In this document: in pieces, positions 39,208 through 60,987 of the stretch
Numbering within the stretch: position 1 is the first letter of the stretch
Layout of the letters: each line of letters starts with the position of its first letter
NCBI GenBank assembly: GCA_964621445.1
Contig: CAZUNO010000009.1
Span: 35,263 to 99,262 of the forward strand
Reading direction: 5' to 3'
DNA: 64,000 bases
DNA from: Candidatus Hadarchaeota archaeon
GTDB lineage: Archaea > CAYQAE01 > CAYVLA01
Notes under the pieces: generated by a model
Database searches by the model: none
What the model was told of the DNA's origin: nothing
Seen by the model: the letters and a program-made list of their open reading frames with translations, nothing else
Translations under genes and position numbers: made by a program

Positions 39208-39247
39208 CTTTTCATTTTTTTCATTTTTTTCCTTTCTTCTTTTTTCT
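39208..39247 (+). terminator. Oligo-T archaeal terminator after the thermosome gene
   Basis: Several consecutive T4-T7 tracts directly after the stop. Confidence 0.65.
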
Positions 39248-42032
39248 AATCCCAGAAGTCCCTCGTGGCCTCATATCTACCCTTGGCTCTCATCAGGTCG
39301 GCGATGAATCCCTGATCGTCGTCATGCATCTTGGAGAGAATCCTAGCTGCCGTCTGGGGTCCTATTCCTCTCACTGAAAGTGCCGTCACGGCTCGAATAC
39401 CATAAATCGAGACCAGATCCGCCTTTCTCTTCAGCCTCCCCAGGACCTCCCTGTTATCGATTTCGCTTTCCGAGTTCCTTAATTTTAATACAAGCCGTTC
39501 ATCTGCATCGGCCGGAATTGTTAGAAACCTGGATCCACACCTATCACATCTCGGTTCATCAGGCAGCTCCCCGATCCTCATCCATTTGCCCTTGCCGCAC
39601 TCAAAGCACCTGATTTCCTTCCTTCTCCTCAGAATCCTGGACTTGATCTTCTCGCTGGCCTCCCTCGTGGCACCGAATTCAAGTTCAGGGACGGCGGAAA
39701 ACCTATCCAGAATTCCCCTGGCCCGGGATGAAGGACCAATTTCGGCGCTTCTTTCCAGAAAACGTATCTCCATCTCTCCATCAGATAACTTCATGAGGAT
39801 CCTGGCCAGGCCCGGAACATCAAGCTTCTCGGTCTTTCCCTCCCGGACTCCCTCCTCGTAGATGGGCGTGTTTTGGTACTTCTCCACCAAATTCTTTGCT
39901 ACCGGGTCAAACAAATGAACGTTTCTGGGAATGGCCCCGAATCTGGCCGCAACATGCTTCAGCGGGAACGGGAACCGGCGGTCGATCTCCCTGTCAACGA
40001 TTTTTTCAACCTCCCCCGCGCTATCTATCAAAATTCCCATGATATTCTTCAACCAGTTAAGGTCTATTACCGTTGCGAATTCGAACATTACCCTATAGGG
40101 ATCGCACTGGCCCATTATCTCCAGGCCCTGGGAAAGGGATTCGGAACTCTCCCTGAGAAGCCCTTCCAGCGCCAGGCGAAGAGCCTGATTGATCCTCGTG
40201 CCCTGAGGTGAATGAATCACCAGAAATCTGTCATAAACCTCCAGCAAGAGCTGTTTGGGGTTTGGTAATACATCCTCATCACGCTCCACCTCCATTTCCT
40301 CCTCGGCTAGATCCATGGCCGAGTCATCCGCATGCAGACCTGGTTCAAGTAAATCCATATCCCTGGACAGGGCGGCCGTCTTCTGAGCAACCTCATGGGG
40401 CACAGGGGGTAGCTCGCCGTCCCAACCCGGGATAGCGCCCAGGTTCTGGTCGCTTGGACTGACATGGACCAACCCGTCAGCTCCCATCTCGTTAATGCGC
40501 CATATCTTACCCCTGCAAATGAAATCCAGACCAACCTCACAGGTCAGGGCGACGAACTCCTCGCCCAGATTGCCGACTATCCTACCCGTGCTATCATCCA
40601 AAATTGGATACCTTCTCTCATCCGGAATCATCGACATGTTATCGAAGTAGTATTTCCAGGTGTTTTCCGTCTTCTGAAGTCTGATCCCGGACTGGGCTAT
40701 GGTACCTAGGCCCTCCATGAAGTGAACCACCTCCATGAACCTCTTGTAGCCAATATTTCTATAGGGATGGGCCTTCACGATCATCTGGTAAATCCCTTTT
40801 ACGTCTAGGTCGAGCCCGTCCATGACCATCCCGGCGATCTGGTGGGAGAGGACGTCCAGTGGATTTTCATGTATTGAAATATGCTCAAGCCTGCCCTCCA
40901 GAAACAGCCGGCAAATGGCTATCGATTCCCGGATCTGTTCGGACGAGGTACATATGATGGAACCACGGGATACCTTCCCCATCATGTGTCCCGATCGACC
41001 AAATCTCTGGACGAAGGAGCTAACCTTCATGGGGGACATGTACTGTACGACATAATCAACCTGCCCGATATCAATGCCCAGCTCCAGGGTCGAGGTGCAG
41101 ACCAGGGCGGGAATCTCCCCGGCCTTGAACCCGTCCTCTGCGGATTCCCTCTCCTCCCTTGATATGGACCCGTGGTGAACGGCCGAGGGGATAACGCTGG
41201 ACAGCCTATGACCCAACATCTCGGTCAGAGTCCTTGCGTTGGCGAAAATCAGCACGGACCGGTGTGATTCCACCAGTTCCTTCATCCTGCGAATTCTTGC
41301 CGCGGCCTCGGGGGATGAGAATAGGTCATCGGCCAGGTCCAGGTCCCTGACCTCTGGCTCGGGGTACTCTATCCTTATCTCGTAGCTCTTCTCCCCCACC
41401 CAGGATTTGACCTTGAAGGGGCGTGGTCCACAGATGAGTTTCCCAGCCTCCCCAGGATCGGCCAGGGTCGCTGAGAGGGCGATCCGCTGGAAACCTGAAG
41501 ATACGACCTCCAATCGCTCCAGGGCCAAGGAGAGCTGCACACCCCTTTTGCTCCCCATAATAGCGTGTAACTCATCTATTATCACCGCTTTTACCCCTGA
41601 AAGGTTGCTTCTCAATCGTTTCCCGACCAGAAGTGCCTGCAGGGTCTCCGGGGTAGTGACCAGCAGATCGGGGGGTTCCAGTGCCTGCCTCCTGCGTTGG
41701 CTTCTCCCGGTGTCGCCATGTCTTATCTCGGCTGAAATGGAGAGATTTTCGGCCCATTTGGCCATCCTCTTCAGGATATCGCGGTTTAGAGCTCTCAGAG
41801 GTGTGATGTAGAGTATGGATATGCCTTTGGACTCCCTGGAGAGTTGACTGTTAAGAACGGGAAGGATGGAAGCCTCGGTCTTACCCGAGCCGTTCGGGGC
41901 GACCACCACCACGTTCTTCCCAGTCAGGATATCCGGGATGGCCATTCTCTGTATCTGGTTTAGCTCCTCCAGGCCCTCGGACCTGGCCAGCGAGACTATT
42001 CTGGGATCCAGAAGCTCCTCTACCCCTTCCAA
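39246..42032 (-). CDS. lhr: Lhr-family SF2 DEXH helicase with C-terminal Zn motif
   Basis: APNGSGKT, YITPLRALNRD, DELH, LSAT, HHGS, TLELGIDIG, QRFGRSGH, LDVLSHQI; CFECG..CDRCG. Confidence 0.9.
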   Translation of the reverse strand: MEGVEELLDPRIVSLARSEGLEELNQIQRMAIPDILTGKNVVVVAPNGSGKTEASILPVLNSQLSRESKGISILYITPLRALNRDILKRMAKWAENLSISAEIRHGDTGRSQRRRQALEPPDLLVTTPETLQALLVGKRLRSNLSGVKAVIIDELHAIMGSKRGVQLSLALERLEVVSSGFQRIALSATLADPGEAGKLICGPRPFKVKSWVGEKSYEIRIEYPEPEVRDLDLADDLFSSPEAAARIRRMKELVESHRSVLIFANARTLTEMLGHRLSSVIPSAVHHGSISREERESAEDGFKAGEIPALVCTSTLELGIDIGQVDYVVQYMSPMKVSSFVQRFGRSGHMMGKVSRGSIICTSSEQIRESIAICRLFLEGRLEHISIHENPLDVLSHQIAGMVMDGLDLDVKGIYQMIVKAHPYRNIGYKRFMEVVHFMEGLGTIAQSGIRLQKTENTWKYYFDNMSMIPDERRYPILDDSTGRIVGNLGEEFVALTCEVGLDFICRGKIWRINEMGADGLVHVSPSDQNLGAIPGWDGELPPVPHEVAQKTAALSRDMDLLEPGLHADDSAMDLAEEEMEVERDEDVLPNPKQLLLEVYDRFLVIHSPQGTRINQALRLALEGLLRESSESLSQGLEIMGQCDPYRVMFEFATVIDLNWLKNIMGILIDSAGEVEKIVDREIDRRFPFPLKHVAARFGAIPRNVHLFDPVAKNLVEKYQNTPIYEEGVREGKTEKLDVPGLARILMKLSDGEMEIRFLERSAEIGPSSRARGILDRFSAVPELEFGATREASEKIKSRILRRRKEIRCFECGKGKWMRIGELPDEPRCDRCGSRFLTIPADADERLVLKLRNSESEIDNREVLGRLKRKADLVSIYGIRAVTALSVRGIGPQTAARILSKMHDDDQGFIADLMRAKGRYEATRDFWD

Positions 42033-43168
42033 GATCGACCTCTTCCCTGCATTTCGGTGGGTATGAATTCCTTAAGTCTCTTCAGGGACCGCATCTTGTC
42101 CCGGTCGCCGATGCTGGAGTCCTTCACCGCATTCTCCAGGATCTCGATGCTTTCATCATATGATTCCCGGTTGACCGGGTAGGGCACCCCGTCCTTTCCC
42201 CCAAAGGTGTAGGAGTATTTCACCGGGTCCTCCCAGCTTGGAGGTTGTCCATATATGAGATCCGAAACCAGGGCCAGAGCCCTGACCGTTGATGGTCCAA
42301 GACCCCTGACCAACAATAGCTGTTCGTAATCCCTGGGATTGAAATCGTAGATCTTATCCATTGCCCCCCAGTTTATCCGGGGAGGCAGCACTCTCTCACT
42401 TGGCAGGGAAACCCCTGTCCACTCCAGCAATGACCTCTGGCTATCCTTTCTTATCCTTGCCATATCGTCCATAAGCTGGCCTCGGCCTCCGGTGGCTAAC
42501 TTGAGACTCTGTTCGCGACATTTCTCGCTTTTTCCTGAAGTCAGGTCCATCGCCTCTCTGGCCCGCTTGTCGCAGGCTATTCCCACGTGAGGCTCCTCCA
42601 CGAAATTGTCAAGGCTTGAGGACTGCCAGTGATACCTTCTTGCCATTCTGGACTCCGCATTCATCCCCTGTTGAATAACCGCCCACTCCCCTGATTCCAC
42701 TATGAACATTGAGTGATGGTATATTCCAAAACCGTCCTGCACCAGGGCAGAATCAACCTTGGCCGAAAGCCTTGACGACCTGCGTAGAGAACGAATTCTT
42801 GAGCTATGGAGGGACAATCTGTCCTGGAGGTTTTCGATCTCCTCCAATGACCTCCTGGCCCGAGAACCTTTTCCACCCACAGAGGCCATGCCATGTTCCT
42901 CCGGATCCAGGATTGACTTCAGCACACCGCAAAGCACGGTTGTGGTTCCCGAGCTATGCCAGTCAAATGCCAGGACGCAGCTCATGGCCTGGAACCAGTC
43001 CGGGTTGGAAAGACGGCGGAGATATTCATCCGGGCCATATTCATCTATCATTATATCCGATATGGCCCTGGCCAGCTTCTTCATTCTTCCAACCAGCCAG
43101 CCCGGAGCCGATCCCCCGTGAAGCGGTAGATCCATGGTTCCCTTCTTGGAAAAGCTCAACGGAAACAC
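42020..43168 (-). CDS. DUF763-family protein
   Basis: DLPLHGGSAP.WL..RM, DWHSSGTTT, SAKVDSALVQDG, QQGMN, ARRYHW, GGKDGVPYPV; true start probably a few codons downstream. Confidence 0.9.
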   Translation of the reverse strand: MFPLSFSKKGTMDLPLHGGSAPGWLVGRMKKLARAISDIMIDEYGPDEYLRRLSNPDWFQAMSCVLAFDWHSSGTTTVLCGVLKSILDPEEHGMASVGGKGSRARRSLEEIENLQDRLSLHSSRIRSLRRSSRLSAKVDSALVQDGFGIYHHSMFIVESGEWAVIQQGMNAESRMARRYHWQSSSLDNFVEEPHVGIACDKRAREAMDLTSGKSEKCREQSLKLATGGRGQLMDDMARIRKDSQRSLLEWTGVSLPSERVLPPRINWGAMDKIYDFNPRDYEQLLLVRGLGPSTVRALALVSDLIYGQPPSWEDPVKYSYTFGGKDGVPYPVNRESYDESIEILENAVKDSSIGDRDKMRSLKRLKEFIPTEMQGRGRSWKG

Positions 43169-43265: not shown

Positions 43266-43817
43266 CTATTCAACGGGCTCCTCGGCTGGTGATCCTTCCT
43301 CTTCCGTTGATCGCGCGGATAGAAAACGGGATCTCAAGCGTTCTTGATCGATCTCGGCCATGGCTCTCCACGAGAGGGATAACACCTCTTCATCCCGGTA
43401 GAGATAACCGGCTTCCACCATGGTGTCAATCTTCTTTGAAGAGATATCCTTGCTTCGCAGAACGTCCATGACCTCCACCTCCTTGGCCCTGCCCCCCCTG
43501 CTAACCAGGAAACAGGTCACCGCAGCAAGCGCGGCAAGGAACCTTCGATCCCACCCGCAGATCTTGACCTGCTTGTCCTTAATGGGCTTCTTGGCCCTTA
43601 CAAAAACCCTTTTTCGTCCTTCCGAAAGTGGATCTCCCTTATCATCAACGGTAACCAGTTCCAGGCCCAGGTCCTCCAACCTACCTTTCAGTCCACCCAG
43701 GATATCCTGCAGCTCCTCGCCACAGATCTTCTCCAGTTCTGAGACGTATACACCAGGTCTCCTCCCCCGCTTGAATAGCAGCATGCCCAGTACCCTTGAT
43801 TCCCTATCCGAAACCAA
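43266..43817 (-). CDS. Tandem winged-helix kite protein (MAGE/Nse3-Nse1-like)
   Basis: LLFK..P..EL.K..DIL..LEDLGLELVTVD (WH-A); FLVSRGGRAKEVEV..GYL..LSWRAMAEID (WH-B); 1-nt gap to the kleisin-like gene. Confidence 0.65.
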   Translation of the reverse strand: MVSDRESRVLGMLLFKRGRRPGVYVSELEKICGEELQDILGGLKGRLEDLGLELVTVDDKGDPLSEGRKRVFVRAKKPIKDKQVKICGWDRRFLAALAAVTCFLVSRGGRAKEVEVMDVLRSKDISSKKIDTMVEAGYLYRDEEVLSLSWRAMAEIDQERLRSRFLSARSTEEEGSPAEEPVE

Positions 43818-43818
43818 G

Positions 43819-44580
43819 TCAGTTATCCTCCCTCAGCCTTCTCAGCACAATGGCCAGGCTGTGAGTATCTCCCTTCCGGCCATTGGTATTCTTCACCAAC
43901 TTGGGTCCCCCCTGGTTATCCACCAATTCAAGCCTTCCCTGGGATAGCAGGAAACTAGAAAGGTAGCTTCTCCTAACTGCATCATTGAAGTTCAGCCTCC
44001 CTTGCTCAGAGACGAACTCGTCATATTCGATCCCTGAACCCTCAATTCTAGAGGTGAACTCTGATTCAAGTGAATTAAGGACCTCGTCAAAATCTATGTC
44101 GCTGAACACACTCCTCGCCACTTCATCGTTTCTATCATAAGTCCGGAATTCCGATGGTGGGATATCCATCCCCTCAGAATCCCCCTCCGTGGATAGGTCC
44201 AACCAGTGTTCTCTGCCCATTTCCAGAGCCTTTTCATTGATCTCCTCCAGCTCAAGTAAGGGATGAAAACATCCGAGGAAAATTGAGAGGAGGCGGGAAA
44301 GGGGCAGTGAGGCGACCCTCTCCCTGGCAATATCCGAATCGACGTAGAGCTCGTCCGCCTCATACCTGAGCCACTCGCACTGTAGCCTGATGGTGGCAAC
44401 CAGGGACTTCATTAGACGAGCATAGAGTATATGGTCCTCAGGCTCCGACAGGTCCCCGCCGAGTTCGGATACGGTTTCCCAGACCTCCCAGGCGTCCACT
44501 TCGTGAGGGAGAATCTCTCCTCTCAGGGCTTCTCGACATTTAGCAAGTCCATCCCTCAGTACCTGGGTATTCCGGCTCAT
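43819..44580 (-). CDS. Kleisin-like protein (ScpA/Nse4-like)
   Basis: N-terminal helical domain (PHEVDAW), acidic linker, C-terminal WH YDEFV..F..AVRRSYLSSFLLSQGRLEL; 1-nt gap to the SMC gene. Confidence 0.65.
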   Translation of the reverse strand: MSRNTQVLRDGLAKCREALRGEILPHEVDAWEVWETVSELGGDLSEPEDHILYARLMKSLVATIRLQCEWLRYEADELYVDSDIARERVASLPLSRLLSIFLGCFHPLLELEEINEKALEMGREHWLDLSTEGDSEGMDIPPSEFRTYDRNDEVARSVFSDIDFDEVLNSLESEFTSRIEGSGIEYDEFVSEQGRLNFNDAVRRSYLSSFLLSQGRLELVDNQGGPKLVKNTNGRKGDTHSLAIVLRRLREDN

Positions 44581-44581
44581 T

Positions 44582-47527
44582 CTAGGCCTCCATTACCAGG
44601 CTTCCCACCTGGCTTTTGTCCTGCACACTCTGCACAACTATCACGTTCTCGGCTTCGTTTAGATCTACCTCCGATAGATAAGAAGGAGTGATAGCTATGT
44701 ACTGCTTTGAGTCCTGCTCCACGGCCGCTCTGAGTAGTCTTGTTACCTTATCCCGATTCGCGGGGTCGAGATGAACATCGTACTCATCTACCGCCCTGAA
44801 CGGGGATTTGACCTGGCGCTGTAGAGCCAGGAGGAAGGCCATGGTCGATAGGCTCTTCTCCCCGCCGCTCTGAGTCAGGGTGCTTATTGAGGTCATTTCC
44901 TTGCCCTCAAACCCCACCTTTATGTCCAGGCCCACCTCTCTAACGTCATCATTTACCAGCTCTACCCTTCCCCTTGCTCTGATATCTGACAATATCTCAT
45001 TGAAATCGTGATTGATCTCCTCCAGGTGCTCTTCCATTATTTCCCGCCACTTGGCGAGCCCCCGCCTCAGCTCAACCTGCATCTCCTCCCTTTTCTCGAT
45101 GATCTTCTGGAGGCTCTCCTTCAGCTCCTTGAAGTCCTTAAGATATGTCCTGTAGACGCCCTCGATATCATCTGGGACATCGGAAAGCTCTCCCAGTGAC
45201 CCCCTGACGCTGCTCATCTCCTTCTCGAGTTCCCGGAGGGAACCCGGGGATTTGATTCTGGGTGATAGCTCCTCGGCCTGCCCAATTAGGTCCTGAAGGC
45301 CGGTTTGTTGACTGGCAATCTCCTCCTTCAGGTTCTCGACCTCTGATTTAGTCGAGCTTATCCTCTCGGAAAGCAGGATTCTCTTGCTCTTGAGATCATA
45401 ATAGGATTCGAGTTGTTTCTCGAGGTCCTTTTTGGCCCTTTCAAACTTCTGTTCGCTTTCCTCAAGACCTGCAGACGCTCGATCTACGGCCTCCCTGGCC
45501 GAATTAAGTTCCTCCTCCAGCTGGCCCAGGAGCCGATCCTTCTCCTTAAGTTCTCTCTCCCTCAGCTCGACAATGGCACCGGAAGAAATTCTGATTCGTT
45601 CGGCCTCTCGCTCCATAATGGCCTCGGATGAGATATGTTCCAGGCTCGCTAGCTCCCTTTTTGAGCCCACGGAAATCAATCTCCGTATCAGATTACCGAT
45701 TTTATTCTCCCGATCCGATTGGATGTCATCCAGTTCTCGGGAGAGGTCTCGTACCTCCCGTTTTAAACGGGAGTGCTCCTCCCGCAAGGACTCCATCTCC
45801 TCCCGGATCTTCAGGAGCTCCCCGCCCTTAGTCCAGCTCTCGCCGGTTATCATTCCTTTCATCAAACCGACGTAATCACCATCTGGATTAACCACCGGGA
45901 CCCCCAGGGATTCGGAAAGGCCCTTATGATCAACATCCCCGTCAACTAGCACCACATCCCCGGCTGATTTTCTAAGCAGCGCGCGCACTTGGTCAGGAGC
46001 ATCGATGCTGTCAACGACCCAGTCGATGACTCCTTTCTCCTTGGGCAGGTATCTCTCGTCAAGTAGAACCAGGGCGGAATTAGGAACCAGGTAAACGGAG
46101 GCGTCAACTCCCCTGTCCCGCAAGAAGCGAACCACCCTTCTCTTGTCGCTCTCGGTGGTGGTTACGAAGGAACGCAGTACACGTTCGCCAAAAAGGGTGC
46201 GAATAACGTGAAATTCAAGGTCATTTGACTCAATTACCGAGTATATGGGGCCGAAAACGGGACCGTCCAAATTTTCGAGGGACTCCACCTCCTGGCCAGC
46301 GGCCTCCAATTTTTCACCAAATGGATGTTCAAGCTCTCCTTTCAGGGAGCCCATCTCCCTTTCCAGCTCCTTCATCCTCTCCTTCTTGATTGCCATATCA
46401 TGTTTCAGATCCAAGGCTCGGTCATCGCTAACCATCCCCATTATGCTTTGTCTCAGATCCGAGAACTGGTCATCCAGGTCGGCCTCTAACTGTTCCTCCC
46501 CTGAACCTCTTCTCAGATCTTCCAGCCTCTCCGAGGCTTCCCTTACCTTCTCCCTGTTACGTTCCAGGGATTGATGGAGTCGATCACGGCCGGATCTTTC
46601 CTCCTCCAATCTCTCTTCCAGCATTTTCCTTCGGCTGGCGGCTCGGGCAAAATGATCCGAGGCCTCAACTAGGGAACCCTTGACCTGGTCCAGGGAGCGC
46701 CATGCGCCCTTAACTCTGGAAAGCCGATCATCCATCCTCCGACCCAGCTCCTCCATCTGGGCCCGCAGTCTGTTAAGCTCCCGGTCTCTCTCGCGTTTCC
46801 TGGTTTTTAGCTTCTTGAGCTCATTTTCGTTCTCGACAACCTTGGCCCACAGCGCCTCCGCGTTAAGGTCCTCGAGCCTATCCTCCAGCTTTCGCTTTCT
46901 TTGATATCTCTCATACAGTCTCTCCCACTCGGTCACTCTACGGCTCGAACCGTCTAGGACCCTCCTGGTTTCGCGTTCCTCGTTCAAAAGGGTCTCCAGG
47001 TCATCCCTGGCCTCGAGGAGATCCTGTCGGTAGGACTGGAACTCGATTACCTCCTCAAGCATTCCAAGTTTTTCCCTGCCCGAAAGGAGGCTGAATTCCT
47101 CTACCATGTCCTGTTGCATTATTATGAGCATGTTGTCCGGATTTATGCCCTGTTTCTGGATTAGCTCGGTTAGCTCCGACTTGGTGGAGGGTACTCCATC
47201 TATCTTGATCGGGTACGACCCTGATCTCTTTAGGGTCCTCTCCAGGACCACCTCGTCCTTGTCATAATCAGGGAAGGGCCGAGAGCCATCATTCTCCTGA
47301 TTGTCAAGGGTGAGACTAATGACGGACCCATCACATCCCCATCTGATCAGGTCGGATAGCTTATGACCTCGCTCCGTCTTAGATAGGCCGAGGGCCAGGG
47401 CTACCGCAACCAACAGGGTTGACTTGCCCGACCCGTTGGGCCCGCAGATAAAATTCACTCCTGATGAAAAGGGAATATCCGCACTCACGTAGGACATGAA
47501 ATTTCTTAAACTGAGTTTCTTTATCAT
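44582..47527 (-). CDS. SMC5/6-like ATPase (SMC superfamily)
   Basis: NFMSY, GPNGSGKST, Q-loop MQQD, long coiled coils, central hinge (VFGPIYSVI..DAPDQVRALL), QSGGEKSLSTMAFLLALQ..PFRAVDEYDVHLDPANR. Confidence 0.88.
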   Translation of the reverse strand: MIKKLSLRNFMSYVSADIPFSSGVNFICGPNGSGKSTLLVAVALALGLSKTERGHKLSDLIRWGCDGSVISLTLDNQENDGSRPFPDYDKDEVVLERTLKRSGSYPIKIDGVPSTKSELTELIQKQGINPDNMLIIMQQDMVEEFSLLSGREKLGMLEEVIEFQSYRQDLLEARDDLETLLNEERETRRVLDGSSRRVTEWERLYERYQRKRKLEDRLEDLNAEALWAKVVENENELKKLKTRKRERDRELNRLRAQMEELGRRMDDRLSRVKGAWRSLDQVKGSLVEASDHFARAASRRKMLEERLEEERSGRDRLHQSLERNREKVREASERLEDLRRGSGEEQLEADLDDQFSDLRQSIMGMVSDDRALDLKHDMAIKKERMKELEREMGSLKGELEHPFGEKLEAAGQEVESLENLDGPVFGPIYSVIESNDLEFHVIRTLFGERVLRSFVTTTESDKRRVVRFLRDRGVDASVYLVPNSALVLLDERYLPKEKGVIDWVVDSIDAPDQVRALLRKSAGDVVLVDGDVDHKGLSESLGVPVVNPDGDYVGLMKGMITGESWTKGGELLKIREEMESLREEHSRLKREVRDLSRELDDIQSDRENKIGNLIRRLISVGSKRELASLEHISSEAIMEREAERIRISSGAIVELRERELKEKDRLLGQLEEELNSAREAVDRASAGLEESEQKFERAKKDLEKQLESYYDLKSKRILLSERISSTKSEVENLKEEIASQQTGLQDLIGQAEELSPRIKSPGSLRELEKEMSSVRGSLGELSDVPDDIEGVYRTYLKDFKELKESLQKIIEKREEMQVELRRGLAKWREIMEEHLEEINHDFNEILSDIRARGRVELVNDDVREVGLDIKVGFEGKEMTSISTLTQSGGEKSLSTMAFLLALQRQVKSPFRAVDEYDVHLDPANRDKVTRLLRAAVEQDSKQYIAITPSYLSEVDLNEAENVIVVQSVQDKSQVGSLVMEA

Positions 47528-47720
47528 TCTCCGTGTCCCGTGATTATCGGTGGTCTGCTGAACTTACAAATATTCCCTTATGGCACCCTGCGATGCGTAT
47601 TCCCGGGTAAAACGGCACCAGGTCCAGCTCTTGACAATCTTTTCAGAATGCAATATCATGAACGTCGCCAGCAAAATACTGGACCACATTTATTATTCCT
47701 CATATCTTCCCAGAATCCTA

Positions 47721-48110
47721 ATGTCAAGAACTCCATCGCCGGAGCAGGTGATCGAAAAATTCGCCAGAGGATACCGACGGGGAGATTACTCCGGTATCTA
47801 CAACCTTTATTCAAAACGGAGCGATATCAAGAAAAAGTTCAGCAAGCAGGCATACAGCTCCAAGATGAGAACCACCGCTAAACGAACCCAGATGGAGATT
47901 GAGGAATCCCATGTGGCTGGATCCCAGGTCTCTGGTGGTAAAGCTCGGGTAACTCTGGTCAGCAAGACCAAAAGCATAGTTGGTGAATGGCACATGGAGG
48001 AACAGTTCACCCTGGTACAGGAAGACGGAAGCTGGAGGATCCTTGAAATGAAAAAGGTAAGGCAGTGGCCCGTCGGAGAAAGAGGAACGGCCACCAAGGG
48101 AAGGATGTGA
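47721..48110 (+). CDS. NTF2-like (DUF4878-like) small protein
   Basis: SPEQVIEKF..GDYSGIYNLYS..GKARV..LVQEDGSWRI; ATG 47721 follows a TTTATT element. Confidence 0.6.
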   Translation: MSRTPSPEQVIEKFARGYRRGDYSGIYNLYSKRSDIKKKFSKQAYSSKMRTTAKRTQMEIEESHVAGSQVSGGKARVTLVSKTKSIVGEWHMEEQFTLVQEDGSWRILEMKKVRQWPVGERGTATKGRM

Positions 48111-48114
48111 TAAC

Positions 48115-48672
48115 TTGGCAGAGGTATACTTCGTGGCAGGACTATCAGGAGTTGGAAAATCCTCCGTCGTCAATTACGCCCTGAATAGAATTGAGGGCGT
48201 GGAGAGGGTGAACTTTGGAGATGCCATCATGCAGGAGGCCCTGGACCAGGGGCTTGTCGAGAACCGTGACGAACTTCGGCTGCTCGGCACATCGGTTCAG
48301 AGGGGATTACAGGCCAAGGCGGCCAAGAAGATCGGGAAAATGGAGGGACGGGTAATCGTTGACACCCACCTCACCATACCAACCCCCGATGGCTATGTAC
48401 CGGGTGTTCCCATAGATATCCTGGCCGAGTTGAACCCCAAAAAGATAGTCATACTTGAGGCTGACCCTGGCGACATACTCAAGAGAAGAATATTGGACAA
48501 GGGCAGAGAAAGGGTCGACGAGACCCTGGAAGAGATCGAGGAACACTTCGATTTCGATCGTGCCGCAGCCATATCCATGGCCATCCAGGTTGGGTCACCG
48601 GTGAAAATCATAAGAAATGACATCATAAAGGAGGCCGGGGAGGAGCTTCTCGAACTTCTGAAGAGGGGATAA
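48115..48672 (+). CDS. adkA: Archaeal adenylate kinase
   Basis: GLSGVGKSS, VNFGD, RDELR, VDTH..TPDGYVPG, EADP..ILKRR. Confidence 0.92.
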   Translation: MAEVYFVAGLSGVGKSSVVNYALNRIEGVERVNFGDAIMQEALDQGLVENRDELRLLGTSVQRGLQAKAAKKIGKMEGRVIVDTHLTIPTPDGYVPGVPIDILAELNPKKIVILEADPGDILKRRILDKGRERVDETLEEIEEHFDFDRAAAISMAIQVGSPVKIIRNDIIKEAGEELLELLKRG

Positions 48673-57021: not shown

Positions 57022-60000
57022 ATGGGAGAAGGCAAATTTCTTCTCGAAGGCATGGCCCCCGCACCTCGCGACCTCTCAGAGATATCCACTTTTGCCATAC
57101 CGACGCTGCGGACCTTCTTTGTTCTAACTTGCTTTCTCTCGCTATTGCTACCCAATGTTATTGCCGACAATGGACTGGCTTCGGAGTACCTTGTCCAGAT
57201 ATATCCAATGAGAACGGAGATTGTTGAGGGTGAATCAGTCATGGTCCGGGTCAGCGTCTACAGGCGGAGCTACGAGGGACCAAATCAAGGGGTTTCGGGT
57301 GCAGTCATATACCTTGCCGTCACCCATGGAACCTACCAACCACAGAGCCGGGTCACCGATGCCTCGGGCAGGTGCACATTCACGTACTTCGCCCCGGATG
57401 GACTATCACAACCCCTCAGCGCGAACCTCACCGCTATAGGCAACATAGGCGAGGTCCTGTTGCCCGCCGCATCTTACCAGATTCACGTCGCGCTGGCGCC
57501 CAATCTCGAGGTTCAACTCGACGGGCCTCTTCAAGTCCAGGTAGGTGGGCCGCCCGTGAACTACACTGTATCCGTGAGCTGTGAGGGAGAGCCTGTGAGG
57601 ATGGCAGAGTTCACACCGTCGGCTACGGCCGGAGGTATTGGACAACAATCTGACTGGACAAATGGAAGCGGCGGGGCGAAATTCGAATATCTACCTTCCG
57701 AAAACTACACCGGCCCACTGGACCTGACGGTGAGAGCATACAAGGGAGGATATCAAGATGGCTATGGTTACAAGACCATCGTACTGGTCCATGCCATCGG
57801 ACCTCTGGAAGCCGAGTTGAGCACCGACCGCCCCTTCTGCAAGAGTTGGGCAAGCCTCCTTCTCACCTGCAACGTAACAAGGGCCGGCTTTCCGGTAGAG
57901 AATGCCGCCATTGACTGGGAAGCAAATGAAGGCTGGTTGAATGCGTCCCGGACAAACACCAATCATAGCGGCCTCTCCAGCATCATCTATACTGCCACGG
58001 CGGATCAGGAAGGGCCCTGGTCGGGTAATGTCACCATAACCGCCCACGTTGATTATCCCGGTGAACAGGCGGACGCCCAATACGTTTTCCAAGTCCTGGG
58101 TCAGGAGTTGGACTGGCAGGCAAATGTTGGATGCAGATTCAACCACGCCCAGCTCTTTCCAGGGGAGATCTTCCAGGTCAAGCCAAGCTACTATGTACCC
58201 CATGGCACCTCCGATTTCGTGGCCGGAATGGCGGTGGACTTCATCGTCAAACAACCCTCAGGGGAGGAATACGTTACGGTCAACCTGGCGGAGAATCTCA
58301 GAGTCAGAGATGGGCTCTCGTGGTACCCCGGCTGGAGCGAGGTCCTCACGGTCCCGGATGGGGTTACTGCCGGCGACTATCCATGGGATATCGTCGTCAC
58401 CTCCCCTAACCGAGTTCACGTCTACGGCAGGCTTTCCCCACACCCTGATCTCAACCTCAATCCTACCGGGATCGATGACTGGACGATATTGATGTACATA
58501 AACGGGGACAACGATCTCACCTCTTACTACGACCAGCTTGTCGACCTTTTGGAATCCGAGGCCCCCGACGGCGAATTCCGCGTCCTGTTGCAGTACGACC
58601 GTAAGCCCCAAAATGATGGGCATGAGACCTCATATGGAGCGATTAGGGCCGAGCTCATGCCGAATCCCGCCAATGACAGGTTCGATTCCCCGGTTTTAGG
58701 GAGATTGAGTAGCGTCGACTCGGGAGATAGACAGACTCTGAAGGATTTCATGATGTGGGGCAGCCACTATGCGCCGGCGGGCCACTACTGTCTCGTTATT
58801 TCGGACCACGGTGGTGCCTTTGAGGGAGTCTCCTATGACTACTCCTGCCAAAGCGTCATCGCTCCTACCGAGATCGCCTCAATGTTCTCAAGACATACGG
58901 TCTTCAGTCCCTTCAACTTCGATGCTGCGCGGAGGGATCTGGATGTCATGGTTTTCGACGCATGCTCCATGTCCTCGATGGAGGCCAGCTACTACTTTGG
59001 GAATGGCGCCAGGTATCTGGTCGCCAGCACCACGGTTATGGTCTGGCCCGGTCTCTATACACCGGGAGCCTTGGAGAACCTGCGTTCCTTCTACGATACC
59101 TTCGACTCGTCGCCAACGCCGCTCCAGTTAGCATCAGACTTCATCGCGGCGTGCGATCAGTACTGGATTCAACGTGACTTTCCGGCCTGTGTAATTGACC
59201 TCGAGAAGGCCAACGACACGATCTACGCGTTCAATGACCTCTGCGAATTCCTGGTAGATCACTGGAGCTTTTTCGGTGACGGTGTGAACGAGGCGATCGA
59301 AGATACCCAGAGGCTCCGGGGGCCTTCCGAGGGCGCCTGGTGGCTGATGGATCTCGGGACAATGGTTCAGAATATCAAGGACGAGCTGATGAGCTACGTA
59401 ATCGACCCGGTCGGCTACCTAGCGGTCCAGCATGCTGATGAAGTACTCGATAAACTCGATGAGGCCGTTGTCAATTACATCCCTGTTGAGGGGATCACCG
59501 GGCTTAACCTGTTCGTGCCCCATTCTCGCAGCCTTTGGGAGGAGGAGAAGGATTCCTACGAGATGAGTAAGATCATGTGGGGCCATGCCTGGTGCCGGCT
59601 ACTAGATACGCTCTGGATCCTCCCTCACGACACGACAGGAGAGTCGGAGGAAGAATTTGTGCCCCTTGAACAGGTTCAGCCCACCATCATCGACCAGAAT
59701 GATGATGGCAACGGGGACATCGTGGCGGTAAACTTCCCCAAAGAAATGGAAAACCCGGCAAACCAGTTCGTTGTAGTGGATCTAATCGGGCAGGGATCTC
59801 GTCTCTCAACATCCAGTCTCTATAATCTATCCTCGAGGTCCGTCCTGAGACTCGGGCCCGGCTTGCAGGAAACCGAGACCGCTTTCCTGAGGCCAGGTGA
59901 GGAAGGTTTCCACACCCTAATGGTTTCCATCGTATCGGACGACGGTAGGATCGTGAACCAGGGCTTTCTGGCAAATGCCACTTTGAAACCTGTGGAAGAC

Positions 60001-60987
60001 AACAACACCGATCCGGAGCTATCCATCTCCGCACAACCCCGTGCCGTGAAAGCTGGGGAATCGGTTGAGTTCACTGCTTCCGTTCATGACCCCGATGGCG
60101 ACCGAGTTCAGCTCTGGTGGGATTTCGATGACCGGGACGGGATATCCATAGACTCCACAAATGCCACAGAGAACCGATTCTATCTCAGTCCCGGCCGGAT
60201 AACCGTCACCTGCATAGCTTCAGATGGCTCAACCGCCGTTGTTGACACCCTTGATTTGAACGTGACCCCCGCGGTCGACAATACTGAACCTTTCGCCAAT
60301 ATGACAGCGGTTCTGGACGAGGTCAGGACGGTGCTAATCAATGCTTCATCTTCTTTTGACCCTGACGGGGACCAAATGGAATACAGGTTTAGCTTTGGGG
60401 ACGGGTTCTTCTCCGGATGGCAGGCCTCACCCGTTATGCTCCATAGCTATCCAAAAAGCAGCAACTACACCTGCTCTCTCAAAGTTCGGGACCTCAGGGG
60501 AGGGGAGTCGGATAGGGTATTCCTGACCGTTGATTCCGGGGGGCCTGTCAGGAATCATCGCCCGCAGGCTGAGCTATCCATGCCCGTGAATGAAGTTGGC
60601 ACGCTCACAGAGGTTTTTGCCAACGGTTCAACGTCCCGCGACCGGGACTCCGATGAGCTCGAGTACCTCTTTGATTGGGGGGACGGAAATGCCACCATCT
60701 GGGGATCTGAATCCTCGGCCTCACACTGCTATTCTCATTTGGGTAACTTCACCGTGACCCTGAGTGTCCGTGACCCGGCAGGTCTCCGTGACTCTGACAC
60801 GAGAGTTCTAAGGGTCGAGGAAGCCCCCAAAACCCCGATCTGCTTGGCATTCATGATTTCATTTGCGCTTTTTATCGGCACGAATATTCCACCAACTTCC
60901 GAAACCCCATTGACGGAAAAGGTGCATTTCAGTAGGCTATTGGAGATCGGAGAATTGGAAAAGATCACCTATCGGACCGGACCTTAA
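57022..60987 (+). CDS. Surface-anchored clostripain-family (C11) cysteine peptidase with Ig-like and PKD domains
   Basis: Signal peptide; invasin-like TDASG/TNGSG/TNHSG repeats; WTILMYINGDNDL, SDHGG (His), FDACSM (Cys); three PKD-like domains; C-terminal TM. Confidence 0.85.
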   Translation: MGEGKFLLEGMAPAPRDLSEISTFAIPTLRTFFVLTCFLSLLLPNVIADNGLASEYLVQIYPMRTEIVEGESVMVRVSVYRRSYEGPNQGVSGAVIYLAVTHGTYQPQSRVTDASGRCTFTYFAPDGLSQPLSANLTAIGNIGEVLLPAASYQIHVALAPNLEVQLDGPLQVQVGGPPVNYTVSVSCEGEPVRMAEFTPSATAGGIGQQSDWTNGSGGAKFEYLPSENYTGPLDLTVRAYKGGYQDGYGYKTIVLVHAIGPLEAELSTDRPFCKSWASLLLTCNVTRAGFPVENAAIDWEANEGWLNASRTNTNHSGLSSIIYTATADQEGPWSGNVTITAHVDYPGEQADAQYVFQVLGQELDWQANVGCRFNHAQLFPGEIFQVKPSYYVPHGTSDFVAGMAVDFIVKQPSGEEYVTVNLAENLRVRDGLSWYPGWSEVLTVPDGVTAGDYPWDIVVTSPNRVHVYGRLSPHPDLNLNPTGIDDWTILMYINGDNDLTSYYDQLVDLLESEAPDGEFRVLLQYDRKPQNDGHETSYGAIRAELMPNPANDRFDSPVLGRLSSVDSGDRQTLKDFMMWGSHYAPAGHYCLVISDHGGAFEGVSYDYSCQSVIAPTEIASMFSRHTVFSPFNFDAARRDLDVMVFDACSMSSMEASYYFGNGARYLVASTTVMVWPGLYTPGALENLRSFYDTFDSSPTPLQLASDFIAACDQYWIQRDFPACVIDLEKANDTIYAFNDLCEFLVDHWSFFGDGVNEAIEDTQRLRGPSEGAWWLMDLGTMVQNIKDELMSYVIDPVGYLAVQHADEVLDKLDEAVVNYIPVEGITGLNLFVPHSRSLWEEEKDSYEMSKIMWGHAWCRLLDTLWILPHDTTGESEEEFVPLEQVQPTIIDQNDDGNGDIVAVNFPKEMENPANQFVVVDLIGQGSRLSTSSLYNLSSRSVLRLGPGLQETETAFLRPGEEGFHTLMVSIVSDDGRIVNQGFLANATLKPVEDNNTDPELSISAQPRAVKAGESVEFTASVHDPDGDRVQLWWDFDDRDGISIDSTNATENRFYLSPGRITVTCIASDGSTAVVDTLDLNVTPAVDNTEPFANMTAVLDEVRTVLINASSSFDPDGDQMEYRFSFGDGFFSGWQASPVMLHSYPKSSNYTCSLKVRDLRGGESDRVFLTVDSGGPVRNHRPQAELSMPVNEVGTLTEVFANGSTSRDRDSDELEYLFDWGDGNATIWGSESSASHCYSHLGNFTVTLSVRDPAGLRDSDTRVLRVEEAPKTPICLAFMISFALFIGTNIPPTSETPLTEKVHFSRLLEIGELEKITYRTGP

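What the first reader, a model, noticed from the sequence alone, without database searches (positions are those of the whole stretch)
43266..47527. Complete archaeal SMC5/6-like complex: SMC + Nse4-like kleisin + MAGE/Nse1-3-like kite in one operon
Seen: three genes separated by 1-nt gaps. The SMC C-head (QSGGEKSLSTMAFLLALQ..PFRAVDEYDVHLDPANR), N-head (ALALG...ERGHKLSDLI) and hinge (FGPI, DAPDQVRALL) resemble eukaryotic Smc5/Smc6 more than condensin-type Smc or Rad50. The 253-aa protein ends in an Nse4-like WH motif (EFV..F..V..Y..SFL...G). The 183-aa protein has MAGE-like tandem WH motifs. Established: SMC5/6-related proteins such as Sulfolobus ClsN/coalescin occur in archaea, but their non-SMC partners are poorly characterised. 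Inference: a minimal homodimeric counterpart of Smc5/6-Nse1/3/4, possibly acting with the histone on chromatin or against extrachromosomal DNA.
Basis: partly seen in the sequence, partly recalled or inferred. Interest (0 to 1): 0.85.

Follow-up and report, generated by a model that had tools for sequence, protein, structure and literature searches.

The report
Archaeal SMC5/6-like three-gene operon, hinge-bearing
Three tightly packed archaeal genes encode a relative of the eukaryotic Smc5/6 DNA-maintenance complex (ATPase, Nse4-like bridge, Nse1/Nse3-like adaptor); this kind of operon is already published, so this is a further member, unusual mainly in keeping a full-length arm and hinge.

Summary
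Three minus-strand genes lie 1 nt apart: a 981-aa SMC, a 253-aa protein and a 183-aa protein.

The core reading holds too:
- A canonical Smc-ScpA-ScpB operon sits on another contig, so this is a second SMC system.
- The SMC family profile ranks Smc6 and Smc5 first among solved structures (214-178 bits), level with or above archaeal Smc (178) and above Smc1-4. The genome's canonical SMC does the reverse.
- The partners' family profiles reach only Nse4/EID3 and Nse1/Nse3/MAGE.
- The kite model is a tandem winged helix nearest to Nse1.
- A complex model puts the kleisin on the SMC neck and cap: score 0.68, best control 0.01.

It is not new as a kind. Yoshinaga & Inagaki 2021 and the van Hooff et al. 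preprint describe such archaeal operons, and this scan has noted 34 of them.

Two particulars stand out. This lineage keeps the hinge, while all 17 distant relatives examined are hinge-less. An Lhr helicase is a recurrent neighbour.

The parts
44582..47527 (-). SMC ATPase, 981 aa (P0001), of the archaeal SMC5/6-related type, with full-length arms
   Evidence: ORF, translation. Pfam SMC_N 132 bits against a cut-off of 40. TIGR02169 226.9 bits against a cut-off of 729.4, so it is not canonical Smc. The family profile ranks Smc6/Smc5 first among solved chains.
47033..47527 (-). N-terminal half of the ATPase head (about residues 1-165; boundary set by eye): Walker A GPNGSGKS at 29, Q-loop Q139
   Evidence: Residues 162-197 (start of the arm) contact the kleisin N-terminal helix in the model.
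45941..46258 (-). Hinge domain (residues 424-529)
   Evidence: Pfam SMC_hinge 28.7 bits against a cut-off of 22.5. The two full-length orthologues score 23.9 and 22.8 bits at the same place. The whole stretch 316-665 (window 45533-46582) is missing from 13 of 13 short relatives aligned.
44585..45040 (-). C-terminal half of the ATPase head (about residues 830-981; boundary set by eye): signature SGGE at 887, Walker B AVDE at 912, H919
   Evidence: Residues 950-981 contact the kleisin C-terminal winged helix in the model.
43819..44580 (-). Nse4-like kleisin, 253 aa (P0002): N-terminal helical domain (residues 1-91, window 44308-44580), disordered middle, C-terminal winged helix (residues 164-230, window 43891-44091)
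   Evidence: AlphaFold2 model. Family profile A6 hits Nse4/EID3 in the PDB at 6e-4 to 1.7e-3. Pfam Nse4_C scores sub-threshold in 7 of 10 distant family members. The complex model supports binding to the SMC neck and cap.
43266..43817 (-). Nse1/Nse3-like kite, 183 aa (P0003): tandem winged-helix protein
   Evidence: AlphaFold2 model with pLDDT 89.9. Foldseek top hits are Nse1 5hvq_C (E 2.1e-6), Nse1 7dg2_A (TMq 0.69) and Nse3 7dg2_C. Family profile A3 hits MAGE/Nse1/Nse3 chains. Pfam SMC_Nse1 matches 7 of 40 members.
47528..47579 (.). 52-nt divergent intergenic region with an A/T-rich AATATTT element (47568-47574), 41-47 nt before the SMC start codon; candidate archaeal promoter
   Evidence: Read directly. 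This is inference only; no transcript data.
42020..43168 (-). DUF763 protein, 382 aa (P0004), 97 nt downstream on the same strand; possibly associated, not shown to be part of the complex
   Evidence: Pfam DUF763 409 bits. A DUF763-Lhr pair lies near the operon in 3 of 3 family relatives. No DUF763 was seen in the 17 distant loci, which mostly end inside or before the Lhr gene.
39246..42032 (-). Lhr-type helicase, 928 aa (P0005), overlapping the DUF763 gene by 13 nt; a recurrent neighbour of this operon type
   Evidence: Pfam DEAD, Helicase_C, DEAD_assoc and WH_Lhr. An Lhr gene lies beside the operon in 3 of 3 family relatives. It is convergent within 1.5 kb of the kite in 6 of 17 distant loci.

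Best explanation
The three genes encode a second, non-canonical SMC complex of this archaeon. It belongs to the archaeal 'SMC5/6-related' kind.

Inferred working:
- Two copies of the 981-aa SMC dimerise through their hinge and engage their ATPase heads around ATP.
- One Nse4-like kleisin closes the ring. Its N-terminal helix packs on the neck coiled coil of one SMC, and its C-terminal winged helix sits on the cap of the other head.
- Two copies of the Nse1/3-like kite sit on the kleisin's middle and, with the heads, clamp DNA.
- By analogy with Smc5/6 and Smc-ScpAB, the complex entraps or extrudes DNA in an ATP-driven cycle.

The genome also keeps a canonical Smc-ScpAB, and an Lhr-type repair helicase is a recurrent neighbour. 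The most likely role is therefore DNA repair or rescue of replication forks, not bulk chromosome condensation.

Shown here (in silico): gene structure, family assignment of all three proteins, intact ATPase motifs, the hinge, conserved synteny and a predicted kleisin-SMC interface. Inferred: the 2:1:2 stoichiometry, DNA entrapment and the repair role. The confidence given is for the family assignment; the repair role on its own would rate lower.
For: 1. It is a second system. The genome has a canonical SMC (1199-aa ORF, 1201-aa open frame) followed by ScpA (PF02616, 40 bits) and ScpB (PF04079, 130.8 bits) on contig C1.

2. SMC type.
- P0001 alone scores Pyrococcus Smc 112 bits, Smc5/Smc6 96-99, Smc1/3 39-62, Smc2/4 27-45 and Rad50 31.
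- Profile A5 (16 sequences) gives Smc6 214-203, Smc5 197-178, Pyrococcus Smc 178, Smc2 139, Smc3 135, Smc1 114, Smc4 104 and Rad50 51.
- Control: the genome's canonical SMC gives Pyrococcus Smc 540, Smc2/4 217-233, Smc1 206-214, Smc5 45 and Smc6 32.
- In a head and proximal-arm tree (555 columns, LG+G4+F), the split between this family and five canonical-type SMCs has 100% ultrafast bootstrap.

3. Kleisin.
- The model has an N-terminal helical domain (pLDDT about 90), a disordered middle and a C-terminal winged helix.
- Profile A6 (36 sequences) finds 5 PDB chains at E <= 10. Four are Nse4/EID3 (6e-4 to 1.7e-3); the fifth is ScpA at 0.17.
- Pfam Nse4_C scores sub-threshold in 7 of 10 distant members, and no ScpA match appeared.
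- VIA-align's top three are the ScpA C-terminal winged helix (Z 8.4, rmsd 2.3, 66 aligned) and Nse4 (Z 8.2 and 8.1).

4. Kite.
- The model has pLDDT 89.9 and a tandem winged helix.
- Foldseek hits: Nse1 2.1e-6, Nse1 5.1e-5 (TMq 0.69), Nse3 5.1e-5, then ScpB 1.8e-4 and MukE 7e-4.
- Profile A3 hits MAGE 1.9e-4, Nse1 1.2e-3 and 1.5e-3, MAGE-G1 2.6e-3 and NSE3 5.2e-3.
- Pfam SMC_Nse1 matches 7 of 40 members, MAGE 2 of 40 and ScpB 1 of 40.

5. Binding.
- Score 0.68; best of 3 controls 0.01.
- The mark was reached by 116 of 157 solved complexes and 2 of 215 mismatched pairs.
- The runs agree in at least 80% of contacts, and the partner's pLDDT is at least 63.
- Kleisin residues 26-79 touch SMC 162-197 and 795-830 (neck).
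- Kleisin-SMC complexes are solved, so this pass shows likeness and may come from memory.

6. Conservation. The SMC-kleisin-kite order holds in 3 of 3 family relatives and in the 17 distant genomes with the kite.

7. Repair hint. Lhr lies beside the operon in 4 of 4 genomes of the family and in 6 of 17 distant loci, spanning at least four families: f1, f19, f20 and f73.

8. Literature. The kind is described in Yoshinaga & Inagaki 2021 (sections 10 and 14 read) and in van Hooff et al. (section 8 read).
Against: - No tree with eukaryotic Smc5/6 could be built, because no tool here returns eukaryotic sequences. The SMC5/6 assignment rests on score rankings and on the partners.
- P0001 alone scores an archaeal Smc head (112 bits) slightly above Smc5/6 (96-99).
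- The links to Nse4 and Nse1/3 are weak one by one (E 1e-4 to 5e-3; Pfam hits below the cut-offs). P0002 and P0003 on their own hit no relevant Pfam, NCBIfam or PDB entry.
- The top hit of profile A3 is a designed helical repeat protein (1e-4), made of repeated low-scoring pieces. This shows how near the noise these E-values lie.
- The kleisin model as a whole is poor (pLDDT 68.4, pTM 0.40). Foldseek gives no hit at E <= 0.001. In VIA-align the kleisin rows tie within 1 Z unit with generic winged helices.
- Kite-kleisin binding and the stoichiometry were not tested.
- The repair role rests on gene neighbourhood only. In 11 of 17 distant loci no Lhr lies in the 1.5 kb fetched downstream, and related genomes are not independent cases.
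Confidence: 0.82

Rival explanations
1. It is a diverged extra copy of the ordinary condensin-type Smc-ScpAB complex, with the same job as the canonical one.
For: - The single best PDB hit of P0001 alone is Pyrococcus Smc at 112 bits.
- The best NCBIfam model is TIGR02169 SMC_prok_A at 226.9 bits.
- The kite model also matches ScpB (E 1.8e-4).
- The kleisin's winged helix matches the ScpA C-terminal winged helix (Z 8.4).
Against: - TIGR02169 scores far below its cut-off (226.9 against 729.4).
- The family profile puts Smc6 and most Smc5 chains above archaeal Smc, the reverse of the genome's own canonical SMC.
- The partner profiles reach Nse4 and Nse1/3, not ScpA (0.17) or ScpB (1 of 40 members at 0.072).
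- In the tree, 100% support separates the family from canonical-type SMCs.
Confidence: 0.05
2. It is a defence system against plasmids or viruses: an SMC-based sensor of extrachromosomal DNA like Wadjet or Lamassu, or like Smc5/6 restriction of episomes in animals. The Lhr-type helicase would be its effector.
For: - The PADLOC models mad3 (123 bits) and LmuB (88.6 bits) match the head of P0001.
- The neighbouring Lhr helicase matches BrxHI at 330 bits.
- Eukaryotic Smc5/6 is known to silence episomal viral DNA. This is recalled, not checked here.
Against: - The PADLOC matches cover only the generic ATPase head and score below the SMC models.
- No JetA/JetB-type match appeared for the two partners, and no nuclease gene is in the operon.
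- The context is housekeeping: TBP, thermosome and a kinase-like AAA_17 gene.
- The operon is present in 4 of 5 genomes of the phylum and in 8 of 9 genomes of another family. That is steadier than most defence islands.
- Composition does not differ from the surroundings (GC 0.52-0.54).
Confidence: 0.08
3. It is a Rad50- or ASRP/ClsN-type SMC-related protein, and the two small proteins are unrelated neighbours.
For: NCBIfam Rad50 (65.4 bits) and ASRP (61.8 bits) models give partial matches.
Against: - Both scores are far below their cut-offs (700 and 300).
- The protein has a hinge, not a zinc hook: no CxxC, and its only cysteines are at residues 28 and 65.
- No Mre11 gene is adjacent.
- The two small genes are conserved next to the SMC in every related locus.
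- The kleisin is predicted to bind the SMC neck and cap.
Confidence: 0.02

Closest known systems
Archaeal 'SMC5/6-related' SMC-kleisin-kite operons (Yoshinaga & Inagaki 2021, bioRxiv 10.1101/2021.05.15.444277, also PMC8665677; van Hooff et al., bioRxiv 10.1101/2024.01.07.573240)
   Same: - A second SMC beside a canonical one.
- An operon of SMC, Nse4-related kleisin and Nse1/3-like kite.
- Presumably a homodimer.
- The papers also report members outside TACK and Asgard archaea: 14 of 80 SMC5/6-related homologues were outside TACK, and 'a few euryarchaeal species' are named.
   Different: - I could not see their supplementary tables or trees, so I cannot say whether this lineage is already in their lists.
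- This copy is full-length with a hinge, whereas all 17 distant relatives I examined are 574-677 aa and hinge-less (one further start-inclusive ORF reads 837 aa, its SMC match beginning at residue 224).
- Here a DUF763-Lhr gene pair follows directly on the same strand.
Eukaryotic Smc5/6-Nse1-Nse3-Nse4 core (for example PDB 7qcd, 7tve, 9lwi)
   Same: - Head sequences are the nearest among eukaryotic SMCs.
- The kleisin's C-terminal winged helix aligns with Nse4/EID3.
- The kite fold and sequence are nearest to Nse1 and Nse3/MAGE.
- The architecture is kite-based, not hawk-based.
   Different: - One SMC gene instead of the Smc5 + Smc6 pair, and one kite gene instead of Nse1 + Nse3.
- The kite has 183 residues and Pfam reports no RING-type domain in it.
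- No Nse2, Nse5 or Nse6 candidate lies among the neighbours.
- The proteins are much smaller: kleisin 253 aa against 333-403 aa for the full-length Nse4/EID3 chains matched.
Prokaryotic Smc-ScpAB (condensin-type)
   Same: An operon of SMC + kleisin + kite, a homodimeric SMC with hinge, and the same overall ring architecture. The kleisin winged helix and the kite fold also match ScpA and ScpB structures.
   Different: It fails the TIGR02169 cut-off. The partners do not match the ScpA or ScpB Pfam models. The genome has a separate true Smc-ScpAB.
Hinge-less short archaeal SMC5/6-like operons noted earlier in this scan and seen here in 17 genomes
   Same: Homologous kleisin (profile A4, E 6e-41 to 5e-9) and kite. 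Same gene order. Lhr is a frequent neighbour.
   Different: - The window's SMC keeps residues 316-665 (distal arms and hinge) that the short forms lack.
- In the tree the long clade (100%) stands beside the short clade (73%).
- The 234-aa divergent ORF found upstream of the short SMC in 14 of 17 distant loci has no counterpart in the window.

Membership tests
Archaeal SMC5/6-related SMC complex | SMC head nearer to eukaryotic Smc5/Smc6 than to Smc1-4, and distinct from the canonical archaeal Smc | tested here: met
   Profile A5: Smc6 214-203 bits, Smc5 197-178, Pyrococcus Smc 178, Smc1-4 139-104. The genome's canonical SMC behaves the opposite way. In the tree, 100% support separates the family from canonical-type SMCs.
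Archaeal SMC5/6-related SMC complex | Groups with eukaryotic Smc5/Smc6 in a phylogeny | not testable with these tools
Archaeal SMC5/6-related SMC complex | Kleisin related to Nse4 | tested here: met
   Profile A6 finds four Nse4/EID3 chains at 6e-4 to 1.7e-3 and ScpA only at 0.17. Pfam Nse4_C scores sub-threshold in 7 of 10 distant members. These are weak scores that all point the same way.
Archaeal SMC5/6-related SMC complex | Kite of the Nse1/3-like archetype | tested here: met
   Pfam SMC_Nse1 in 7 of 40 members, best 4.7e-6. PDB MAGE, Nse1 and NSE3 at 1.9e-4 to 5.2e-3. Foldseek's top three hits are Nse1, Nse1 and Nse3.
Archaeal SMC5/6-related SMC complex | The three genes form one operon, separate from a canonical Smc-ScpAB operon | tested here: met
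   1-nt gaps between the genes. The canonical operon is on contig C1.
SMC proteins (in the strict sense) | Split ABC-type head (Walker A, Q-loop, signature, Walker B, H-loop), long arms and a hinge | tested here: met
   Motifs. SMC_N 132 bits and SMC_hinge 28.7 bits, both over their cut-offs. The coiled coil itself was not computed; it is inferred from the 981-aa length and the helical arm contacts.
Kleisin | N-terminal helical domain on the SMC neck and C-terminal winged helix on the SMC cap | tested here: met
   The fold is present in the model. The predicted interface has exactly this geometry: score 0.68, best control 0.01. This is a prediction only and may reflect likeness to solved kleisin-SMC complexes.
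[quoted passage not shown] | Two winged-helix domains in tandem | tested here: met
   Model with pLDDT 89.9 and a secondary-structure order matching two winged helices. It matches Nse1, Nse3, ScpB and MukE structures.
[quoted passage not shown] | Binds the middle of the kleisin, as a dimer | not tested
Canonical Smc-ScpAB | Passes TIGR02169/TIGR02168; partners match ScpA (PF02616) and ScpB (PF04079) | tested here: not met
   226.9 bits against 729.4 and 203.2 against 567.35. P0002 and P0003 match neither Pfam model at E <= 1.
ASRP / ClsN (coalescin) | Passes NF045487; has a zinc hook (CxxC) at the arm apex | tested here: not met
   61.8 bits against a cut-off of 300. No CxxC; the only cysteines are at residues 28 and 65. 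A hinge is present instead.
Rad50 | Passes the Rad50 models; zinc hook; Mre11 partner | tested here: not met
   Best score 65.4 bits against a cut-off of 700. No CxxC. No Mre11-like neighbour.
Wadjet (JetABCD) / MukBEF | MukB-like SMC, MukF-like kleisin, MukE-like kite, and JetD nuclease for Wadjet | tested here: not met
   JetC models score 29-35 bits only, and no PADLOC hit appeared for P0002 or P0003. MukE ranks below Nse1, Nse3 and ScpB in fold search. No Toprim nuclease gene is nearby.
Eukaryotic Smc5/6 holocomplex | Smc5-Smc6 heterodimer, Nse1-Nse3 heterodimer, Nse2 SUMO ligase, Nse5/6 | tested here: not met
   One SMC gene and one kite gene in the operon. One kite match in the genome. 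No such genes among the neighbours. A genome-wide search for Nse2, Nse5 or Nse6 was not run.

The most novel reading that the evidence does not exclude
This lineage preserves the ancestral, hinge-bearing build of the archaeal SMC5/6-like complex, and the widespread 574-677-aa hinge-less forms arose from it by loss of the distal arms and hinge. On this reading the complex works together with the neighbouring Lhr-type helicase (here also DUF763) as an ancient SMC-helicase DNA-repair module that predates the eukaryotic partnership of Smc5/6 with repair helicases. The long and short forms, which share homologous kleisin and kite, would then be a natural pair for asking what an SMC hinge is needed for.
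Probability: 0.3. Interest if true: 0.55.

Novelty: new member of a known kind. Interest (0 to 1): 0.3.

Why it matters
Archaeal SMC5/6-related complexes are thought to be the stock from which eukaryotic Smc5/6 arose. As far as the papers I read show, none has been studied biochemically.

This copy is compact, at 981 + 253 + 183 aa from one operon. It keeps a full arm and hinge like the eukaryotic proteins, and it comes from a lineage outside the TACK and Asgard groups where most members were reported. That makes it a reasonable candidate for reconstitution.

It could also serve as the 'long' partner in a comparison with the hinge-less relatives. The recurrent Lhr neighbour offers a testable lead to function.

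None of this changes the picture already in print. It adds a member and two particulars.

Tried and rejected
- **Single-sequence and shallow-profile searches of the partners.** P0002 had no Pfam or NCBIfam hit at E <= 1. Profile A1 (13 sequences) had 0 PDB hits at E <= 10. Profile A2 (5 sequences) had 4 irrelevant hits, all at E >= 0.36. The links appeared only after deeper alignments, A3 and A6.
- **Word-based homologue searches.** They reached only close relatives: 13, 5 and 21 proteins.
- **Foldseek on the whole kleisin model.** No match at E <= 0.001. VIA-align on its list puts kleisins on top but within 1 Z unit of generic winged helices, so fold alone does not settle kleisin identity. 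Families absent from those lists are not excluded.
- **Hinge region alone (residues 316-665).** It has no PDB sequence match at E <= 0.1. It is only 22% identical (E 0.13) to the hinge region of the genome's canonical SMC.
- **AmoA search to place the distant genomes.** 0 of 5 genomes matched, but the control rang nowhere, so the result is uninformative.
- **Expression.** No RNA holder was listed for the operon.
- **Earlier scan notes.** None for this place or this sequence.
- **Literature.**
  - No paper in the searchable library holds 'Lhr', 'SMC5' and 'archaea' together.
  - Only one unrelated paper mentions DUF763.
  - A search for 'coalescin', 'ClsN' and 'kleisin' added nothing beyond the papers already read.
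  - In the van Hooff preprint's main text, 'hinge' occurs only in general descriptions (3 occurrences).
- **Defence reading.** PADLOC gave only generic head and helicase matches.
- **Histone partnership.** Rejected on distance, about 13.4 kb.
- **Alignment A3.** I used 35 of the 60 representative hits, plus P0003 and its 4 close homologues. I dropped 25 hits, most of them short or partial (55-168 aa; one of 244 aa matched over only about 75 residues).

Full report
**Observation.** One search lists three minus-strand ORFs at the reported coordinates:
- 44582-47527 (981 aa)
- 43819-44580 (253 aa)
- 43266-43817 (183 aa, TTG start)

A single base separates each stop from the next start.

The ATPase motifs of the large protein are intact: Walker A GPNGSGKS at 29, Q139, SGGE at 887, AVDE at 912 and H919. 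They are invariant in 16 of 16 aligned family members.

The TTG start of the third gene is supported by residues conserved before Met12 in 4 of 4 homologues.

Two more genes follow on the same strand. A DUF763 gene (42020-43168) begins 97 nt downstream. An Lhr-type helicase gene (39246-42032) overlaps it by 13 nt.

The surroundings are housekeeping: TBP, a thermosome subunit and, divergently upstream, a 176-aa unknown plus an AAA_17 kinase-like gene. Base composition does not stand out.

**A second SMC system.**
- The genome (3.2 Mb, 89 contigs) has a canonical SMC on contig C1 (1199-aa ORF, 1201-aa open frame).
- Directly after it come ScpA (PF02616, 40 bits) and ScpB (PF04079, 130.8 bits).
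- The window's SMC passes Pfam SMC_N (132 bits) and SMC_hinge (28.7 bits, cut-off 22.5; residues 424-529).
- It reaches only 226.9 bits on TIGR02169 (cut-off 729.4), 65.4 on Rad50 (700), 61.8 on ASRP (300) and 39.6 on arcadin-4 (860).

**Which SMC?**
- Against all solved chains, P0001 alone scores Pyrococcus Smc 112 bits, Smc5 and Smc6 96-99, Smc1/3 39-62, Smc2/4 27-45 and Rad50 about 31.
- The genome's canonical SMC behaves the opposite way: Pyrococcus Smc 540, Smc2/4 217-233, Smc1 206-214, Smc3 160-187, Smc5 45 and Smc6 32.
- A profile of 16 family members (A5) puts Smc6 (214-203 bits) and Smc5 (197-194) in the first nine places. Pyrococcus Smc (178.4) is tenth and a further Smc5 chain (177.9) eleventh. 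Below come Smc2 139, Smc3 135, Smc1 114, Smc4 104 and Rad50 51.
- A tree was built of the shared head and proximal arm (555 columns, LG+G4+F, 1000 ultrafast bootstraps). It holds 16 family members and five canonical-type SMCs. The split between the two groups has 100% support.

**The 253-aa protein.**
- On its own it matches nothing. Word-based searches find only 21 close relatives.
- Its AlphaFold2 model (20-sequence alignment) has mean pLDDT 68.4 and pTM 0.40.
  - The N-terminal helical domain is confident (pLDDT about 90) and includes a long helix, 47-91.
  - The middle (98-150) is disordered.
  - The C-terminal winged helix (164-230) has pLDDT about 80.
- This is the kleisin layout.
- Foldseek gives nothing at E <= 0.001, but its first four rows are Nse4, Nse4, RAD21 and the ScpA C-terminal winged helix.
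- VIA-align on that list ranks the ScpA C-terminal winged helix first (Z 8.4, rmsd 2.3, 66 aligned). Nse4 follows (Z 8.2; and Z 8.1, rmsd 2.3, 79 aligned). Generic winged helices come less than 1 Z unit lower.
- The decisive step was a deeper alignment. The ORF directly upstream of the kite gene in 17 distant genomes matches the kleisin profile (E 6e-41 to 5e-9).
- With 16 of these added (A6, 36 sequences), hmmsearch against the PDB returns five chains at E <= 10. Four are yeast Nse4 or human EID3 (6e-4 to 1.7e-3), aligned over the C-terminal winged helix with the Y..F...F..tve..y.vSFL..G pattern. The fifth is ScpA at 0.17.
- Pfam Nse4_C scores sub-threshold (16-23 bits, cut-off 26) in 7 of 10 distant members, and no ScpA match appears.

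**The 183-aa protein.**
- An exhaustive profile search of 1.84 billion representatives found 60 relatives at E <= 0.001.
- I aligned 35 of them, dropping 25 mostly short or partial ones, with P0003 and its 4 close homologues (A3).
- Pfam SMC_Nse1 matches 7 of the 40 (best 4.7e-6), MAGE 2 of 40 and ScpB 1 of 40 at 0.072.
- The profile hits nine PDB chains at E <= 10. Five are a MAGE-domain protein (1.9e-4), Nse1 (1.2e-3 and 1.5e-3), MAGE-G1 (2.6e-3) and NSE3 (5.2e-3).
- The top row of that search is a designed repeat protein (1e-4), built from repeated low-scoring pieces, which I regard as spurious.
- The model is confident (pLDDT 89.9, pTM 0.79) and shows two winged helices in tandem.
- Foldseek ranks Nse1 (2.1e-6), Nse1 (5.1e-5, TMq 0.69) and Nse3 (5.1e-5) first, then Pyrococcus ScpB (1.8e-4) and MukE.
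- It is a kite of the Nse1/3 archetype.

**Do they bind?** One complex job folded the SMC head with its neck (residues 1-230 and 760-981) together with the kleisin as partner, using alignments A5 and A6.
- The verdict is that the model supports binding but does not show it.
- The score is 0.68 and the best of 3 controls is 0.01.
- The mark was reached by 116 of 157 solved complexes and 2 of 215 mismatched pairs.
- The runs agree in at least 80% of contacts, and the partner's pLDDT is at least 63.
- Kleisin residues 26-79 lie on SMC 162-197 and 795-830 (the neck). Kleisin 186-249 lie on SMC 950-981 and 11-38 (the cap).
- That is the textbook kleisin geometry. Such complexes are solved, so the pass shows likeness and could come from memory.
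- Kite-kleisin binding was not tested.

**Distribution and the hinge.**
- The kite profile finds a match in 4 of 5 species genomes of the window's small phylum and in 21 of 301 archaeal genomes sampled.
- The three other genomes of the window's family carry the same operon with a long SMC: 985 aa, 1003 aa, and one split into 624 + 345 aa ORFs. The matching records are labelled 'Candidatus Hadarchaeota archaeon' or 'uncultured Thermococci archaeon'.
- In all 17 more distant genomes, the SMC upstream of the homologous kleisin and kite is short.
  - It measures 574-677 aa. One start-inclusive ORF reads 837 aa, with its SMC match beginning at residue 224. Two are cut by contig ends.
  - It lacks the window protein's residues 316-665, that is the distal arms and the hinge, in 13 of 13 aligned.
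  - It has no SMC_hinge match in 4 of 4 scanned.
- The two full-length orthologues keep the hinge match, at 23.9 and 22.8 bits.
- The window's hinge region is only 22% identical (E 0.13) to that of the canonical paralogue, so it is not a recent graft.
- Rooted on the canonical-type SMCs, the long clade (100%) is sister to the short clade (73%, weak).
- This fits a hinge-bearing ancestor and later loss, but with so few long sequences it is no proof.

**Neighbours.**
- An Lhr-type helicase lies beside the operon in the window and in 3 of 3 family relatives, each time with DUF763.
- It lies convergently within 1.5 kb of the kite in 6 of 17 distant loci, from families f19, f20 and f73.
- In the other 11 loci the fetched 1.5 kb holds other genes.
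- No paper in the searchable library holds 'Lhr', 'SMC5' and 'archaea' together.
- Earlier notes of this scan also mention the Lhr neighbour. That is not independent evidence, but I re-counted it here.
- PADLOC gives only generic matches: mad3 at 123 bits and LmuB at 88.6 bits on the head, BrxHI at 330 bits on Lhr, and nothing for the two partners.

**What is known.**
- Yoshinaga & Inagaki 2021 (sections 10 and 14 read) defined 'SMC5/6-related aSMC'. They found 80 homologues, 66 of them in TACK and the rest in Euryarchaeota, Asgard and Thermoplasmatota. In 44 of 80 cases a canonical SMC was also present.
- The van Hooff et al. preprint (abstract and section 8 read) reports that many archaea carry two complete SMC operons. 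One is SMC5/6-related, with an Nse4-related kleisin and an Nse1/3-like kite. A few euryarchaeal cases are mentioned.
I cannot say whether this lineage is already listed, or whether protein lengths are discussed.
- This scan holds 34 notes on such operons in at least 33 genomes. The ten notes shown are all short forms, nine of them called hinge-less.

**Mechanism and verdict.** The best-supported reading has three elements:
- a homodimeric SMC ring joined at its hinge;
- a ring closed by one Nse4-like kleisin at the neck and cap;
- a kite dimer carried on the kleisin.

This complex would work beside the canonical Smc-ScpAB. Its role is more likely repair or fork maintenance than bulk condensation. 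The family assignments are shown in silico. The stoichiometry, the action on DNA and the repair role are inferred.

The nearest histone gene is about 13.4 kb away, at window 29671-29859, and is one of three clear histone genes in the genome. Linkage therefore gives no support for a histone partnership.

The finding is real and correctly read, but it is a new member of a published kind. Its particulars are the retained hinge and the directly attached DUF763-Lhr pair. Interest is modest.

Noticed in passing
L043-L056 (for example L047:1376-2077, minus strand): A conserved ORF of about 234 aa with no Pfam match lies divergently upstream of the short SMC in 14 of 17 distant loci (0 Pfam families in the 8 copies scanned). 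It has no counterpart in the window at E <= 10. It may be a fourth component of the hinge-less systems.
   Followed up: partly
window 47580-48672 (+): A 176-aa ORF without a Pfam match and an AAA_17 kinase-like gene lie divergently upstream of the SMC. The same pair in the same place occurs in 3 of 3 family relatives. This may be plain inherited synteny.
   Followed up: partly
L059-L062 (G044, G208, G209, G229): In four distant genomes, the SMC that groups with the canonical type in the tree is itself short (727-768 aa). The one scanned (L059) has no SMC_hinge match. In those lineages both SMC paralogues may have shortened arms.
   Followed up: partly
L011 / L020:693-3493 (G004): The orthologous long SMC is split into ORFs of 624 and 345 aa that overlap in different frames. 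This is either a frameshift or an assembly error in that genome.
   Followed up: no
window 39246-43168 (-): The DUF763 gene overlaps the Lhr helicase gene by 13 nt. The pair is conserved in 3 of 3 family relatives. DUF763 has a weak helix-hairpin-helix match (E 0.063). Only one unrelated paper in the library mentions DUF763.
   Followed up: partly
window 29671-29859 (+): An archaeal histone gene (PF00808, 73 bits), one of three clear histone genes in the genome; a fourth, partial match just reaches the cut-off. It lies about 13.4 kb from the SMC operon.
   Followed up: yes
window 57022-60987 (+): A 1321-aa protein with a clostripain-type Peptidase_C11 domain and several PKD domains.
   Followed up: no
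L047:356-1207 (-): A heliorhodopsin gene (306 bits) lies two genes from the short SMC operon in one distant genome.
   Followed up: no
G000 contigs C29, C15, C37: The genome holds three further SMC_N-type ATPases in open frames of 914, 720 and 624 aa. I did not characterise them; they are probably Rad50- or ASRP-like.
   Followed up: no
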